Below are positions 40,015 to 45,948 of a DNA stretch of 64,000 nucleotides, piece after piece. Within the stretch, counting starts at the first letter, position 1, and the number at the start of each line of letters is the position of its first letter. The stretch lies in NCBI GenBank assembly GCA_963665115.1, contig OY762007.1:704001-768000 (forward strand). Direction: 5' to 3'. The notes beneath the pieces were generated by a model, which was not told where the DNA came from, searched no databases, and saw only the letters and a program-made list of their open reading frames with translations. Both the position numbers and the translations under genes were made by a program. This DNA is from an uncultured Rivularia sp. (GTDB lineage: Bacteria > Cyanobacteriota > Cyanobacteriia > Cyanobacteriales > Nostocaceae).

Positions 40015-42631
40015 TCATTTCAAATCAATATTCTTCGCATACAAACTTTGCAAACGCTGCAACTTAGCCCCAACCTGGTATAGCAAATCACCTTTACCCA
40101 GCAAATAAGCAGCAGCAGTTTTTTTACCACCTAAAACGATTGCAGAATCCGCTTCACTTGCGGTACGTAAAGCAACTCTTCCCGGTAAATTGGAGCGAAT
40201 TATCGGTGTAACCACCTTAGCTTCCGGACGTTGAGTAGCAATTATCAAATGAATTCCCGCAGCCCGTGCCATTGCACCCAAGCGTTTTATACTTTGTTCC
40301 AAAGCACTACGAGATTCTTTCTCAGCCATAAAATCGGCATATTCGTCAAAAATGCAGACAATCCGAGCTAAAGGTTTATCAGCACGTTGATTGTAAGCAC
40401 CCAAGTCAGCACACTCGGTTTTTTCAAATTGCTGATAGCGATATTCCATTTCCGAAACCAACTTATCCATCAGTTTCGATCGCATCTTCACTGTCTTTAA
40501 CTATTTGTGAATACAGCCAAGGCATTTTTTCAAACTCTGGAAAAGTCACCCGTTTGGGATCTACCAGAGCAATTTTTAACTGTTGGGGAGAATAGCGTTT
40601 TAGTAAACTTAAAAGTTGCGATCGCAAAAATTCGCTTTTACCGCTTCCGGTTGTACCGCCGACTAAAAAGTGGCAGGTATTGGGATCTGATAAATCGGCT
40701 TCTATTAACTTTCCTTCTAGATTTACACCGATAGCAATTTTTACCGATGTATTTTCAGCTAATTTTTGTGGCTTCAGATAATCATCGAATAAAGCTGCCT
40801 TCCGATTCGGATTAGGTAAATCGACACTAACATATCCAGCTTGTGGAGAAATCAACGGCGGATTTTCCAATCCCATTTGTATCTGTAAATCCGCATATAA
40901 TTTCTGAATAGAATTAAATTTAACACCCAACTGAGGCTTTAACTTCACCCGAATAAAACTTGGAGCAACAGCAGCCTCAATAAAATCTACACTAATTCCA
41001 AACGACTGTAGAGTAGTTACCAACTCCTCACCAACAGCACCAGCGTTAACAGAATTACTTTCTTCCCCCTTCTCTCCACCTCTTTCCTCTGCGCTCTCTG
41101 CGCCTCTGCGGTTTTTAAATCCATAATCTTCTTTATCTACAGGGATTTGATGAGAATCTACCTCACCACCAAAATAACTTTGACACTTCTCCTGCTGAGA
41201 ACAAATTTCACATAAATAAGGCTGAGTTGTAGCTGGGGGAGAATTAGGCTGAGACGGTTGCCAACTCAACCACTCTTGCATCTGCTGTAACTTGTAGGGA
41301 ATTAGCTGATTTACAGTATCTTCCAATTCTTCCCAGCCATAATAATACTCCTTGAATTCCGGCAAAACGCAGTAAACAGCCGAATCTACAGGTACTTGCT
41401 TTTTCTGCCACAACATATAGCCATACAAAGAAACTTGGGCTAATTGCGCCGAAGGATCGACAGGTTGGTAAGTTTTAAATTCCAATAAACACAACCGCTG
41501 ACGTTCAAAATTATAAATTAAACAATCATATTCTCCCCTAACTTGCTGTCGGCTTCCATTAGGTAAATCAAAATAATGTTCTAGCTGCCGCTCTCCCGAA
41601 ATAAAAGTCTTGCGAATTACGCTGGCAGCACTGCAATAACCTCTATTTACTACGAGAATTTCGGCAAAACGTTTAATAATACCTTGCAATCCCTGCCAAA
41701 CTTGGAAAAGCGGTTGAGCTTTACTAATATCCTTTTTAGTAACTTGCTGTAAATAAGGATAAAATTTAACTTGATAGAAAATCTGCTGCATTTCCGAAGC
41801 AACTTTTTCTACATCTAACTGCGATGCTTCTGGTTTAAATAATTCTTTAAATCTAGCTTCACGCAAAGCTAAACTAACAAATTCATCGGCGGAAGTATGA
41901 AAAACAGAACCAATTCCAGTTACAGTATTGCGAGGAATAAATAATGTCTTCCCGCCAAATTTATCGTTAAGATAAAATAAACGCGGACATTCAAATGCAA
42001 CTCTAACTTTAGTAACGGTTAAAGAAGAACTATCAGTTTTTTTCGCGAACCTGTTTGTATTAGCTTTCATCTTAAACAGAGTATTTTCATTATCAGAATT
42101 AAAATCTAATAAATAGCGATGTACGGCAGCTAAATAAACCACATCCATCGCCGCATAATGTAATTGTTTACTTGAAAGAGGTCGTCGTCTCCAGTCGCTA
42201 GCTCCCCCTTCTGCATCAACATCGGTAAATTGACAAAGTTCTGCTGCTAAAGTTTTAAGCTTTAAATTAGAAGTTTTTAATTTGTAACGAGTAATTTTTC
42301 TAGATATTTTCAGCGTACAGGTGACATTTGGGATTAACTTTCCTCCCAGATATTTTAAATCGAAGCTGGAATTATGAAATACCTTTTCTATCTGAGGATT
42401 AACCATAATTTGGTTAATAAAATATGCTGTTAAATCGGGTTTATCCAACACATCAAAAATATAAGCAAACTCACCCATTGAATCATTAGGGTTAGCCAAT
42501 ACCTGAATTAAAGATAATCTGGGATTGGGAGTCCGACAGTCAGCAACTTCCGTATCCAGCCATAGGATTTTAGAAGAGCGGAATCGATCGATTTGAGTTT
42601 TTATTTGAGTCGCATCTGTCAGGTAGTGCAT
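40015..42631 (-). CDS. Fusion of DEDDy 3'-5' exonuclease, Cas4/AddB-like PD-(D/E)XK nuclease and FtsK/SpoIIIE translocase; +1 frameshift at 40474-40476
   Basis: WLDTE, HNSSFD, YAAMD; CPR..YDCL..EFKT..QVSLY..CEIC.....C; GGTTGSGKSE, LVDPKRV, IFDEYAD, RAAGIHLIIATQRP, LLGKGDLL; removing one base joins the two ORFs as AIELMDKL. Confidence 0.9.
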
Positions 42632-42918: not shown

Positions 42919-45021
42919 CTAAGCAATCAAACAAATCAATTGATCTTCTAACTTCGCTTTAGGGTTCATAATTTTTACTTTCCTTTCATCACATAAAGAT
43001 TGAATTAGCAATTTAACATCACTTTCACTCACATCAGAGAATTCTGCGATACATTGTGAAATTAAAGTCATAATTCCCATAAAACTTTGAGTTTTGATAA
43101 GATTGAATAAGAACTCTTTGATTGGTGCAAAATCTATTTCATCGCCATTACCAGTATCTTCCGATTTATCAATAATTTCTAAATTCTGCAACAAAACACA
43201 TTTATCCAATAATTTAGATTCCCGAATTAAGGTTTGTAGTTTTGGTAATTTAATTGTGTTACCAGCAATAACTAACTCCGCCGCTAAAGCAGAATCTACC
43301 AAACTATGATAAGTAGCTAACAGATGGACGGAAGATAGACTTGGCTTAATATGAATATTTTTACTACCTGTAAAAATTTGCTGATAAAGTTGATAACCTT
43401 TAAGCTTTGATGTTCCTAAGTTAGCATTTCTAATCAGATATAGTTTATCGGAAAGCTGTTTATTTATTACTTTATGAGAAGCATTCATAACATTAAAGAA
43501 ACTGATCATGTTAGAATCTTCCGTCCAAACTATTCCTACCCGTTCGCGTTTATCGGGCTGTTGATAGCTCAAAGAATAACCAGCATATTTTCCACTAATA
43601 AGTTTTGGTTCAATCCCGTTAATTTGTAATGCTTCTAAGGTTTCTTTTAACATCCCAATTAAATCGGGTGCTGATAAAAAAGTAATTTTAGAGATTTTAT
43701 CTTTGATTTTCTTAGATTCTTTTTGCCATAGTAGTTGAAATTCAGCTGCAATTGTTTCCTCGTCTTTCGTTCCCTTTGTCGTAGTAATAACTATGGGAGG
43801 TTTATTTTGTCCGGGAATTTTAACAGCAATTGTGCTATTTGCAGCACTACTTTCTTGTCGCGGTATCTCACTACTATCTATCAGCGATAGTTTATATCTG
43901 TGATACTCATTTCTTGCCAAAATTAATGCATTTCTTGGTAGAGTTTTACCACCGAGAAAACTTGATTCTAAAAATTGACGATTTAATGGAAATATATCTA
44001 ATTTAGGTTGTGGTTTGGCTTGTTGATTTAACGGTTTAAGACGATAAGCCCAAAGCGCTTCTACTTGTTCTAAATTGATCCGTTTTAACCTTACCGCTTT
44101 ATCAATTCTAACTCTGTCAGCTTGCTGAATGCGGTCGCAATTTCTATTCCAAGTATTAGTAATGACGCTAATAATAACTAAAAAGTTTTTTAAATAGCTA
44201 TTATGAATAGTTGTATTGATATTAAATAAAGATTGAAAATCCTGAGAACCATCTGCGACACGAGGAATATTGTCCAAATTGTCAAAACATAAAACAATTG
44301 GTTGAGTTTCAATGGAAATTCTACCAAAGTTGGCTAAAATGTTTTTCGCTGCATTTTCTGAATCAATACAGCTATTAACCTTCAAAGCTTGCATCGACTC
44401 TTCACTTAAGTCATCTCCCCGCAACCACTCGCAAGCAATGGGATATAATTCTGGGTTAGTTAAATCGTGCAGTACACCAAAAAAAAAGTCAGGATTGTAA
44501 AGTCCAGTTTGACTGTAAGTTGTTTTGAGATGATGAATAAACTTACGGCGATCGCTCCGCATAAACTGCCAAATACTATCGCTAAAAAGTCGTTGATCTG
44601 AGTTGATTCTAGTAAAGGCTGATAGGCTTTTGAGCCACACGATCAACTGCGACTCTTGCTGTCCTTCCGGAATTTGAATTAAGCTATCAACAGTAGAACG
44701 TAAAACGTGTCGCCAAATATAATCGCTATCAGCCCAAGAACCGATATAAGCAAAAAAGGCTTTAGGATTAAGGGTGTGTTTGAGACGACCTAATAAATAA
44801 CTTTTACCAGAACCAGAATCACCCAAAAGTAACAGGCTGCGGCTACGATTGTCTTTATTAACTAAATCGAGAAAACCTTCAACTTCACTTATTACTTCTT
44901 GATGAATTGAATCAACGCTGTTAGTTGAATCTTGTTTTTCTCCCCAGAAGTTACCCGGTTTCAAATTTATGAGGTCAAAAGGATTAACCTCGCGCTTAAT
45001 AATATTGTTGATAGATGTCAT
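42919..45021 (-). CDS. Large P-loop ATPase (possibly RcaG-like)
   Basis: Walker A GDSGSGKS, Walker B LCFDNLD. Confidence 0.85.
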   Translation of the reverse strand: MTSINNIIKREVNPFDLINLKPGNFWGEKQDSTNSVDSIHQEVISEVEGFLDLVNKDNRSRSLLLLGDSGSGKSYLLGRLKHTLNPKAFFAYIGSWADSDYIWRHVLRSTVDSLIQIPEGQQESQLIVWLKSLSAFTRINSDQRLFSDSIWQFMRSDRRKFIHHLKTTYSQTGLYNPDFFFGVLHDLTNPELYPIACEWLRGDDLSEESMQALKVNSCIDSENAAKNILANFGRISIETQPIVLCFDNLDNIPRVADGSQDFQSLFNINTTIHNSYLKNFLVIISVITNTWNRNCDRIQQADRVRIDKAVRLKRINLEQVEALWAYRLKPLNQQAKPQPKLDIFPLNRQFLESSFLGGKTLPRNALILARNEYHRYKLSLIDSSEIPRQESSAANSTIAVKIPGQNKPPIVITTTKGTKDEETIAAEFQLLWQKESKKIKDKISKITFLSAPDLIGMLKETLEALQINGIEPKLISGKYAGYSLSYQQPDKRERVGIVWTEDSNMISFFNVMNASHKVINKQLSDKLYLIRNANLGTSKLKGYQLYQQIFTGSKNIHIKPSLSSVHLLATYHSLVDSALAAELVIAGNTIKLPKLQTLIRESKLLDKCVLLQNLEIIDKSEDTGNGDEIDFAPIKEFLFNLIKTQSFMGIMTLISQCIAEFSDVSESDVKLLIQSLCDERKVKIMNPKAKLEDQLICLIA

Positions 45022-45084: not shown

Positions 45085-45948
45085 CTATTCAACTGAGATA
45101 AAGAACAACGGACCGCCAACATTTTGCTCAATTCCACTCTCAATTTGTTCGGAAGTATAAGCATTAGCTTCCTGTAAAGTACTCAACTCAATTTTGTCGT
45201 CAGCTTGTAGTTGAAAAAGAACTTGATCTAATTCATCCCGTGACAACGGTGGCTGCAACTTTTCTCGCAAATAGAAGATAGGTAAATAATCCTTTGTACC
45301 TAACTCTTTATCTAATTTCTGGATAATTTGTAAAATATCTTCATCAGTTAAACTGTTACTCTTCTCATTAACCTGCTCCTGCTCGCTAGTAATAACAGGT
45401 GCAGCAACAATAGCTTCTTCCGACTTTCCTTTCAAAGACTTCCGCAAAAAGCGCAGGTAATTATTTAATAAATCCAAACTTATCGTCGGATTAGTCCCCT
45501 TCTTCGGGCTAAAATCATCCCGTAAAAACTCAATACCTCGTTCAGTCAGCCAAACTTCCGCTTTCGTCTTCTTCAGCTTGATTTCAGTCTCAATCAAACC
45601 ACGACTGCCCAAACTTCTTAAAATCTCTTCCTTCTGTGCAGCCTTCAACGAAGACTTAATCTTGCTTGGTGCAATTTTACCTGAAGCTTTACTAACATTC
45701 TCCAGCACCTTAAGTTCCTTATCTGTAATCGGAATCTCAGCCGCATCCAGTTCCAACAACGCTTGCCCCGGAGGTAAAATCTTTACACCAGCAACCTCAC
45801 GGGAGTAATCGACTATTTCGCGATCGCCCAAATTTTGGCAAATAGTATTTTTACCTTTAAATGATTTAAAAATATTGCCGCTCAAGCTTGAACGGTAATT
45901 TTCGCACCCCAATAGCTTAAGTAAGAACTTTAACTCGTTTGTATCCAT
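45085..45948 (-). CDS. Putative winged-helix DNA-binding protein; resembles, from memory, proteins annotated transcription factor RcaD
   Basis: wHTH-like segments (RGLIETE..VWLTERG; LPIFYLREKL..LSRDELDQVLFQL..IELS); first gene of the operon. Confidence 0.7.
   Translation of the reverse strand: MDTNELKFLLKLLGCENYRSSLSGNIFKSFKGKNTICQNLGDREIVDYSREVAGVKILPPGQALLELDAAEIPITDKELKVLENVSKASGKIAPSKIKSSLKAAQKEEILRSLGSRGLIETEIKLKKTKAEVWLTERGIEFLRDDFSPKKGTNPTISLDLLNNYLRFLRKSLKGKSEEAIVAAPVITSEQEQVNEKSNSLTDEDILQIIQKLDKELGTKDYLPIFYLREKLQPPLSRDELDQVLFQLQADDKIELSTLQEANAYTSEQIESGIEQNVGGPLFFISVE

What the first reader, a model, noticed from the sequence alone, without database searches (positions are those of the whole stretch)
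41180..42631. Exonuclease and Cas4-like Fe-S nuclease replace the membrane anchor of FtsK
Seen: complete DEDDy motifs, then Cys..D..EFK..QxxxY..CxxC-x5-C; no TM segment, and the protein ends just after the motor with no gamma domain. Known: the 1+3 Cys staple binds 4Fe-4S in Cas4/AddB; Cas4 and DEDD exonucleases trim prespacers. Inference: a soluble translocating nuclease. A role supplying spacers to the array about 5 kb away is speculative.
Basis: partly seen in the sequence, partly recalled or inferred. Interest (0 to 1): 0.7.

Follow-up and report, generated by a model that had tools for sequence, protein, structure and literature searches.

The report
Nuclease-tipped DNA pump behind rcaD-rcaG
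This cyanobacterial gene joins two predicted DNA-cutting domains to a soluble FtsK-type DNA pump and is the third gene of a conserved unit whose first two genes are relatives of the reported pigment regulators rcaD and rcaG; the unit likely seizes and destroys invading DNA rather than feeding CRISPR, and no bench test of it was found.

Summary
The domain parse is right: DEDDy exonuclease, four-cysteine PD-(D/E)XK nuclease, FtsK alpha and motor, with no membrane segment or gamma domain. Exonuclease, nuclease and cysteine motifs are intact in 119 of 119 homologues, motor motifs in 118. The window copy has a one-base insertion near 40474; homologues are about 850-900 aa.

The CRISPR idea is not supported. 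Arrays lie near 2 of 76 loci, about chance, and cas4-cas1 pairs sit elsewhere in the genome. The nuclease fits Exo5, AdnA and Cas4 equally well.

The gene is third in a conserved operon behind rcaD (winged-helix) and rcaG (Orc/Cdc6-like ATPase); one Bacillota protein fuses RcaG, nuclease and FtsK. This matches the Orc/CDC6-coupled 'HerA/FtsK capture' systems predicted in 2024 (PMC10853773), including the exonuclease fusion. Patchy presence, motor exchange and swapping of divergent rcaG alleles between close relatives point to anti-invader DNA destruction (about 0.6); DNA repair is the main rival.

The RcaD/RcaG link and the Fe-S staple were not found in print in my searches. This scan reported the same operon earlier on other genomes.

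The parts
45085..45948 (-). rcaD orthologue, 287 aa, winged-helix DNA-binding protein (gene 1 of the operon)
   Evidence: 67% identical over 288 columns to P0245, a 285-aa 'unclassified Tolypothrix' protein; NCBI names orthologues 'transcription factor RcaD'; HTH_45 in 25 of 56 members; Z-alpha-like hit at profile 195-251, E 0.002
42919..45021 (-). rcaG-type Orc/Cdc6-like AAA+ ATPase, 700 aa: AAA+ (about 1-381), alpha/beta middle domain (about 421-615, possible inactive REase), C-terminal winged helix (625-700)
   Evidence: Model pLDDT 86, pTM 0.87; best folds ORC, Cdc6, TnsC, and winged helices for 625-700; Walker A lysine in 60 of 60, Walker B D-N/Q instead of D-E in 60 of 60
42110..42628 (-). 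DEDDy 3'-5' exonuclease domain (residues 2-174) of the fusion protein
   Evidence: PF01612 E 1e-26; five catalytic residues in 119 of 119; folds like Nibbler, RNase D and Pol I proofreading domains, tied at Z about 15
41168..42022 (-). PD-(D/E)XK nuclease with a 1+3 cysteine staple (residues 204-488), Exo5/AdnA/Cas4/Dna2 clan; Fe-S cluster inferred
   Evidence: PF12705 E 2e-10; motifs in 119 of 119; Exo5 Z 14.4 rmsd 2.9 over 163, AdnA Z 14.3 rmsd 3.9 over 229, Cas4 Z 13.7 rmsd 7.6 over 199; Dna2 by Foldseek
40811..41047 (-). FtsK alpha domain (residues 529-607)
   Evidence: PF17854 E 7e-9; model
40015..40759 (-). FtsK RecA-like motor, split over two frames in the window; ends 26-33 residues after the last motif in homologues, no gamma domain
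   Evidence: PF01580 hits in both frames; Walker A, Walker B and arginine finger conserved
40474..40476 (-). One extra base in a short homopolymer run that breaks the frame in this assembly
   Evidence: DNA alignment with two intact relatives; present in run X1, absent in X2 and X3; P0002 is an intact 871-aa protein at 99% identity
33288..34766 (.). CRISPR array without adjacent cas genes; a neighbour, not part of the system
   Evidence: 21 repeats; flanked by DUF3137, ileS, mazEF and katG

Best explanation
The gene is the predicted motor-and-nuclease subunit of a conserved three-gene cyanobacterial unit (rcaD, rcaG, exonuclease-nuclease-FtsK) that likely recognises invading DNA, pumps it and destroys it. 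Shown by sequence and models: operon order, domain folds, intact catalytic motifs, a single-chain RcaG-nuclease-FtsK fusion elsewhere, exchange of motors and of rcaG alleles. Inferred: RcaD winged helices and the Orc/Cdc6-like RcaG act as sensor and loader, and RcaG is a nucleotide switch rather than a motor because its Walker B lacks the catalytic glutamate. The FtsK alpha/beta ring would be loaded on duplex DNA without septal anchoring or KOPS guidance and drive it past the Fe-S nuclease, which by analogy to AddB/AdnA/Exo5 would cut an unwound strand, while the optional DEDDy domain would trim the 3' strand. Specificity would lie in the swappable block from the RcaD C-terminus through RcaG. 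No methyltransferase was recognised among the frequent neighbours, so self/non-self discrimination would rest on that sensor. The window's own allele is frameshifted and would lack a working motor.
For: All three genes in order in 70 of 76 loci, the other 6 cut by contig ends; median gaps 55 and 25 nt in 57 complete operons. All 35 of 35 genomes with the nuclease also have RcaG, adjacent in 33. P0212 (Limnochorda) fuses RcaG (hhalign 99.6%, 559 columns), nuclease, FtsK alpha and motor. The architecture matches the anti-invader class predicted in PMC10853773. Patchy presence: 35 of 301 phylum genomes and 15 of 37 in the family for the nuclease, 156 of 360 family genomes for RcaD. Allele exchange: among 95 pairs with motors over 90% identical, RcaG AAA+ is under 65% identical in 33, against 0 for the exonuclease, nuclease, alpha and both RcaD parts; L063 and L070 are 96-98% identical on both sides of a block at 38-71% (pairs are not independent). 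Motors are exchanged between FtsK, HerA and DndH types, and kinase or YbjN domains are added in variants. An RcaD homologue bound DNA promiscuously in vitro (PMC2799420). Two sister runs carry the intact gene and one the broken allele, as expected if the gene is dispensable.
Against: No activity has been measured. The locus is stable and chromosomal among housekeeping genes, not in a defence island: ParA-like ATPase in 48 of 76 loci, glycosyltransferase in 29, ileS in 24; 1 match in 72,556 plasmid records and none in 50,697 phage records. It is nearly fixed in the window's genus (RcaD 17 of 19). No PADLOC model matches RcaD or RcaG. RcaD-RcaG occur without the nuclease in 7 of 42 genomes, and the fusion lies apart from them in 2 of 35. 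RcaD is reported to affect light-regulated operons (second-hand). None of the 35 carriers has a recB match, which leaves room for a repair role.
Confidence: 0.6

Rival explanations
1. Housekeeping DNA end-processing machine: an FtsK-driven stand-in for AddAB/RecBCD or HerA-NurA that resects broken or tangled chromosome ends, with RcaD-RcaG as loader.
For: The nuclease fold is that of the repair nucleases AdnA, Exo5 and Dna2. Stable position beside a parA-like gene. Purifying selection, omega 0 to 0.33 in 8 pairs. recB found in 0 of 35 carriers, and none of the 25 recB genomes carries the nuclease (confounded by phylogeny). No canonical FtsK with a gamma domain in the genome.
Against: 22 of 37 family genomes have neither the nuclease nor recB, so it does not fill a gap systematically. 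Swapping of deeply divergent rcaG alleles is not expected of repair genes (general knowledge). In L098 a lone rcaG remains at the usual site.
Confidence: 0.17
2. Abortive defence: the sensor detects an invader protein or replication intermediate and unleashes the motor-nuclease on the host's own DNA, killing the infected cell of the filament.
For: Switch-type ATPase with a STAND-like Walker B; no self-marking enzyme recognised among frequent neighbours (judged by eye); kinase-containing variants.
Against: No evidence on target choice either way. A motor-coupled nuclease is more than is needed for suicide, and the published model for the class is interception of invader DNA.
Confidence: 0.12
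3. RcaD-RcaG are a transcription regulator of light-acclimation operons, as published, and the nuclease-FtsK is a passenger or a chromosome-remodelling helper for it.
For: RcaD is reported to bind the cpc2 promoter and alter red-light operons, with RcaG as helper ATPase (Noubir 2002, seen only as summarised in PMC2799420). RcaD-RcaG pairs exist without the fusion (L097, L099).
Against: The nuclease gene never occurred without RcaG (35 of 35) and is fused to RcaG-like ATPases in a Bacillota protein and others. A homologue bound unrelated DNA as well.
Confidence: 0.08
4. One reading: a CRISPR adaptation helper that generates and trims prespacers for the nearby array.
For: Cas4-clan nuclease plus DEDD exonuclease; array 5.2 kb away; weak PADLOC DEDDh (E 3e-5) and Cas4_II (E 0.008) hits. 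Degradation products could be used opportunistically, as with RecBCD (recalled).
Against: Clear arrays in 2 of 76 loci (2 of the 47 with full 10-kb flanks), against about 3% expected by chance in this genome; the array in L053 has the window's own repeat, so it is probably shared ancestry. The genome has three cas1 genes, two with a cas4 beside them, all far away. The exonuclease is present in only 4 of 34 representatives.
Confidence: 0.03

Closest known systems
Orc/CDC6-coupled 'HerA/FtsK capture systems' (Rakesh, Aravind, Krishnan 2024, PMC10853773; abstract, search passages and part 7 of the main text read; supplement not readable; restated in PMC12839542, passages read)
   Same: Orc/CDC6 ATPase with C-terminal winged helix, active REase-fold nuclease, FtsK with alpha domain, separate multi-winged-helix gene, optional 3'-5' exonuclease fused to the FtsK component, motors captured from different clades.
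   Different: The main text has no occurrence of 'cyanobacteria', 'Cas4' or 'AddB', so the Fe-S staple is not described there under those names; the follow-up paper has none of 'RcaD'. It calls the neighbourhoods mobile, whereas here the locus is syntenically stable and swaps only its central block. The class is a prediction without experiments.
RcaD and RcaG of Calothrix (Fremyella, Tolypothrix) PCC 7601 (Noubir et al. 2002, not held; seen only through passages of PMC2799420)
   Same: Gene 1 is 67% identical to a 285-aa Tolypothrix protein of the published RcaD length and is followed by an ATPase gene; genome G343, which encodes that protein exactly, has the exonuclease-nuclease-FtsK gene about 25 nt behind rcaG.
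   Different: Described as a light-acclimation transcription activator and helper ATPase; the downstream nuclease-motor is not mentioned in the passages I could read. Identity of P0245 with accession CAC39267 is inferred from name and length, not shown.
SspFGH / DndFGH and MADS (mad8)
   Same: Defence systems with a C-terminal HerA/FtsK motor; SspH models match the alpha+motor part at E 8e-66.
   Different: Matches cover only the motor; no SspF, SspG, DndF or DndG match for the partner genes and no modification genes recognised nearby.
AddAB / AdnAB, Exo5, Dna2, Cas4 and cyanobacterial ACE1 (PMC12094033, passages read)
   Same: PD-(D/E)XK nuclease with an iron staple; ACE1 is a precedent for a non-CRISPR Cas4-family nuclease acting against invading DNA in cyanobacteria.
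   Different: The motor is a ring-forming FtsK, not an SF1 helicase; no Cas1/Cas2 or Argonaute in the operon.
Cell-division FtsK/SpoIIIE
   Same: Alpha and beta motor domains, Z 40.8, rmsd 2.1 over 336 residues to E. coli FtsK.
   Different: No membrane domain, no gamma domain, patchy distribution, fused nucleases.

Membership tests
Orc/CDC6-coupled HerA/FtsK capture system | Orc/CDC6-family AAA+ ATPase in the neighbourhood | tested here: met
   The RcaG model's best matches are ORC subunits, Cdc6 and TnsC; an orthologue is named 'Orc1-like AAA ATPase'
Orc/CDC6-coupled HerA/FtsK capture system | Inactive REase domain between AAA+ core and C-terminal winged helix | tested here: inconclusive
   A confidently modelled alpha/beta domain lies at about 421-615, with helix, strands, helix, strand order and no D-x-K motif, but no fold, Pfam or Atlas hit names it; it was not folded alone
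Orc/CDC6-coupled HerA/FtsK capture system | C-terminal winged helix on the ATPase | tested here: met
   Residues 625-700 match winged helices, Z 11.7, rmsd 1.9 over 72
Orc/CDC6-coupled HerA/FtsK capture system | Active REase-fold nuclease | tested here: met
   PD-(D/E)XK motif intact in 119 of 119; which of the paper's two REase families it belongs to could not be checked (supplement unreadable); activity not measured
Orc/CDC6-coupled HerA/FtsK capture system | HerA/FtsK motor, in one subset with FtsK alpha and a fused 3'-5' exonuclease | tested here: met
   text of PMC10853773. The window allele itself is frameshifted
Orc/CDC6-coupled HerA/FtsK capture system | Optional gene with 2-4 winged helices | tested here: inconclusive
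   Winged-helix signals in the middle and C-terminal parts of RcaD; the number of domains and kinship to DndG/SspB/FokI were not established; no model was made
Orc/CDC6-coupled HerA/FtsK capture system | Mobile or patchy neighbourhood | tested here: inconclusive
   Patchy (35 of 301) with allele exchange, but stable synteny in the family and 1 plasmid record
Orc/CDC6-coupled HerA/FtsK capture system | Protection against invading DNA | not testable with these tools
   Needs plasmid and phage assays; the published class is untested too
CRISPR-associated Cas4 | Four-cysteine staple and PD-(D/E)XK motif | tested here: met
CRISPR-associated Cas4 | Encoded with cas1/cas2 or consistently beside arrays | tested here: not met
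   Arrays in 2 of 76 loci against about 3% by chance; the genome's cas4-cas1 pairs lie elsewhere, and PF01930 does not match this gene
Cell-division FtsK/SpoIIIE | N-terminal membrane domain and C-terminal gamma domain | tested here: not met
   No hydrophobic segment, 26-33 residue tail; no PF09397 match in the genome
SspFGH / DndFGH | SspF/SspG or DndF/DndG partners and full-length SspH/DndH | tested here: not met
   PADLOC matches only the motor segment; partner genes have 0 hits
AddAB / AdnAB | SF1 helicase motor fused to the Fe-S nuclease | tested here: not met
   The motor is FtsK
Fe-S staple nucleases | Bound 4Fe-4S cluster | not testable with these tools
   Inferred from the four cysteines, kept in 81 of 92 aligned domains, and from fold matches

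The most novel reading that the evidence does not exclude
RcaD and RcaG, filed since 2002 as chromatic-acclimation regulators, are the sensor and loader of a methylation-independent cyanobacterial immune machine whose target range is reset by swapping rcaG alleles, and whose FtsK ring drives two nucleases as an AddAB-like shredder built on a different motor. In some lineages the fused nuclease is dead but keeps its four cysteines and sits beside an active free copy, as an active/inactive pair.
Probability: 0.4. Interest if true: 0.75.

Novelty: new member of a known kind. Interest (0 to 1): 0.5.

Why it matters
If right, it ties a predicted but untested defence class to two proteins with a published history in a genetically tractable cyanobacterium, so the class becomes testable at once and the role of RcaD in light acclimation needs a second look. 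rcaD is present in 156 of 360 genomes of this family, so the unit could be an unrecognised barrier to plasmid transfer and engineering in filamentous cyanobacteria. Mechanistically, an FtsK ring carrying both an Fe-S nuclease and a 3'-5' exonuclease would be a further solution to motor-coupled DNA degradation beside AddAB and HerA-NurA. The domain architecture itself is already in print, which limits the novelty.

Tried and rejected
CRISPR linkage: rejected. The repeat finder flagged 6 of 76 loci; I dropped L017, L034, L040 and L051 as short or low-complexity repeats with only 2-3 spacings, leaving L018 and L053. The chance figure of 3.0% rests on 14 candidate arrays in G000, a few of which are not CRISPR.

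Complex prediction of RcaG with the nuclease domain gave no verdict, score 0.00; it is not used either way. No RNA holder was listed, so there is nothing on expression. The Atlas did not name the RcaG middle domain, a PDB sequence search with the RcaG alignment found nothing, and internal-repeat alignment of RcaD gave only a weak match between its first two segments (65%, 21 columns). Promoter and terminator scans were near chance.

Apparent breaks of operon genes in G001, G003 and G007 were not counted as decay, because the essential ileS is also broken in those assemblies. The recB test is inconclusive because of phylogeny; addA was not searched separately. Neighbour clusters were identified by similarity to window genes or by eye from the 45 most frequent of 288 clusters, not by HMM.

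Literature: nine searches were answered, and none showed a paper linking RcaD/RcaG to the nuclease-FtsK gene or testing the system. Most subscription papers are not held; Noubir 2002 and the supplement of PMC10853773 could not be read and may mention these loci.

Full report
Observation. The finding covers residues 1-484 of a minus-strand ORF at 40463-42631 in a filamentous cyanobacterial genome (homologue names). Pfam gives a 3'-5' exonuclease (2-174), PDDEXK_1 (204-484), FtsK alpha (529-607) and the first half of the FtsK motor; the second half lies in an overlapping frame ending at 40015. In the 119 best homologues after the window's own protein (of 866 found, 120 listed), the DEDDy residues, the four cysteines and the nuclease motif are invariant, the motor motifs are kept in 118, there is no hydrophobic segment, and the tail is too short for a gamma domain. 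The genome has no FtsK gamma match at all.

The break. One extra base in the run at 40474-40476 truncates this copy. Run X1 has it at depth 237, while X2 and X3 of the same coded organism and study lack it and show no other difference over the gene. It is either a recent loss-of-function allele in one culture or an error shared by that run and the assembly; contigs cannot decide. An intact 871-aa version at 99% identity exists (P0002) and was used for modelling.

Folds. The model (pLDDT 85, pTM 0.48, flexible linkers at 178-199 and 490-526) shows three independent units. The motor matches E. coli FtsK (Z 40.8). The exonuclease ties between Nibbler, RNase D and Pol I proofreading domains (Z about 15), so its substrate, DNA or RNA, is open. 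The nuclease ties between Exo5, AdnA and Cas4 (Z 14.4, 14.3, 13.7), with Dna2 found by Foldseek. It is an iron-staple-type nuclease of that clan, not specifically a Cas4; the cluster is inferred, not shown.

The real unit is three genes. Upstream lie a 700-aa ATPase and a 287-aa protein. All three occur in order in 70 of 76 loci, the rest being cut by contig ends (these are the best 76 loci from 335 confirmed stretches). Among 301 phylum genomes, 35 have the nuclease and 42 the ATPase; all 35 have both, adjacent in 33. The ATPase folds like ORC/Cdc6/TnsC with a C-terminal winged helix, keeps Walker A and has D-N/Q in Walker B in 60 of 60 sequences. P0212 from Limnochorda carries RcaG, the nuclease, FtsK alpha and the motor in one chain; P0167 also matches RcaG, and P0184 has an N-terminal AAA domain before the nuclease. 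Across 34 of the 110 representatives, the nuclease is fused to FtsK-type motors in 17 and HerA-type motors in 12, and only 4 have the exonuclease. The exonuclease has a free paralogue at 50% identity in this and most related genomes, its probable source.

Identity of the partners. The Atlas and NCBI name orthologues of gene 1 'transcription factor RcaD'. The window protein is 67% identical to P0245, a 285-aa Tolypothrix protein; published RcaD is 285 aa and is followed by the putative ATPase RcaG (PMC2799420, passages). Genome G343 encodes P0245 exactly and continues rcaD, rcaG, exonuclease-nuclease-FtsK (68% identical to P0002), parA-like, ileS. The primary RcaD paper was not available. In PMC2799420 an RcaD homologue was pulled down from cell lysate and bound unrelated DNA as well as the probe.

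CRISPR. The array is an orphan between mazEF and ileS. Clear arrays occur in 2 of 76 loci against about 3% by chance, and the genome has its own cas4-cas1 pairs far away. The spacer idea is not supported.

Defence or housekeeping. For defence: patchy presence, motor exchange and kinase or YbjN add-ons, and allele swapping. In 57 complete operons, 95 pairs have motors over 90% identical; RcaG is under 65% identical in 33 (AAA+), 27 (middle) and 34 (winged helix) of them, against 0 for every part of the fusion and of RcaD. Nucleotide identity drops in a block from the end of rcaD through rcaG in all four pairs examined, which were chosen for that contrast. The AAA+ domain falls into clusters of 41, 7, 5, 2, 1 and 1 that do not follow the motor tree (FastTree, no formal topology test). 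Against: stable synteny among housekeeping genes, rarity on plasmids and absence from phages, near fixation in the genus, no PADLOC model for the partners, and no recB in any carrier, although 22 of 37 family genomes lack both. All fusion domains are under purifying selection. In 10 of 92 aligned nuclease domains (two of them duplicates) the four cysteines persist without the catalytic motif, and in L095 and L096 an active free copy lies in the same cluster, which suggests a structural role for the staple domain.

Comparison with the literature. PMC10853773 (part 7 of the main text read in full, plus search passages) describes neighbourhoods with an Orc/CDC6 ATPase bearing an inactive REase and a winged helix, an active REase, a HerA/FtsK with FtsK alpha in one subset, an optional 2-4 winged-helix gene and an optional 3'-5' exonuclease fused to the motor, and predicts anti-invader function. 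This locus meets the features I could test; the inactive REase and the winged-helix count are inconclusive. It is not Cas4, cell-division FtsK, SspFGH/DndFGH or AddAB by their defining features. PMC12094033 (passages) gives a cyanobacterial precedent for a non-CRISPR Cas4-family nuclease in defence. PMC5101192 (passages) reports that many cyanobacteria lack recBCD. PMC7766704 and PMC3025954 (passages) indicate that a canonical FtsK/dif system is not established in cyanobacteria.

Verdict. A real, conserved and untested system; a new member of a predicted class, with an RcaD/RcaG link and an Fe-S staple that my searches did not find in print. Earlier agents of this scan reached the same reading on other genomes. 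Interest 0.5.

Noticed in passing
window:33288-35850: Orphan CRISPR array of 21 repeats with a mazEF pair beside it and no cas genes nearby; a related repeat forms a second array at G000:C1:1459460, and L053 has the same repeat at the same site.
   Followed up: partly
window:42697-42814 and 41080-41116: A multi-copy repeat element sits between rcaG and the fusion gene (contig depth up to about 6000 against about 230), and a short dispersed repeat lies inside the coding linker after the nuclease.
   Followed up: no
G000:C1:1643784-1647001: A PD-(D/E)XK gene lies just upstream of an ORF that looks by eye like the PIWI end of an Argonaute; possibly an Argonaute-Cas4-family pair like APACE1, at the edge of an integrated element.
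   Followed up: no
G000:C1:1653485-1660189 and 6128506-6141816: Two related integrated elements, each with an unrelated soluble FtsK gene, an M23-like peptidase gene and small conserved genes; the second is interrupted by reverse-transcriptase-like ORFs (identified by eye).
   Followed up: partly
L095:3925-11870 and L096:819-9931: Variants in which the FtsK-fused nuclease has lost its catalytic motif but kept four cysteines, an active free nuclease gene lies in the cluster, and a Ser/Thr kinase domain (L095, Pfam on P0147) or YbjN domain (L096, Pfam on P0142) is added.
   Followed up: partly
L040, L041, L046 (upstream 10 kb); L097:5172-10358: An extra rcaD followed by two rcaG copies, either in front of the usual operon or on its own.
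   Followed up: no
L098:2495-9580: A lone divergent rcaG remains between the parA-like gene and the glycosyltransferase, with no rcaD or nuclease-FtsK detected in the 12 kb read.
   Followed up: no
G000:C1:7578855-7579829: Free DEDDy exonuclease gene (324 aa, with a C-terminal extension), 50% identical to the fused domain and present in most relatives searched.
   Followed up: partly
window:15506-23795: A run of paralogous genes with 102-nt periodic (TPR-like) repeats and a repeated 250-300-nt segment, some apparently split into overlapping ORFs.
   Followed up: no
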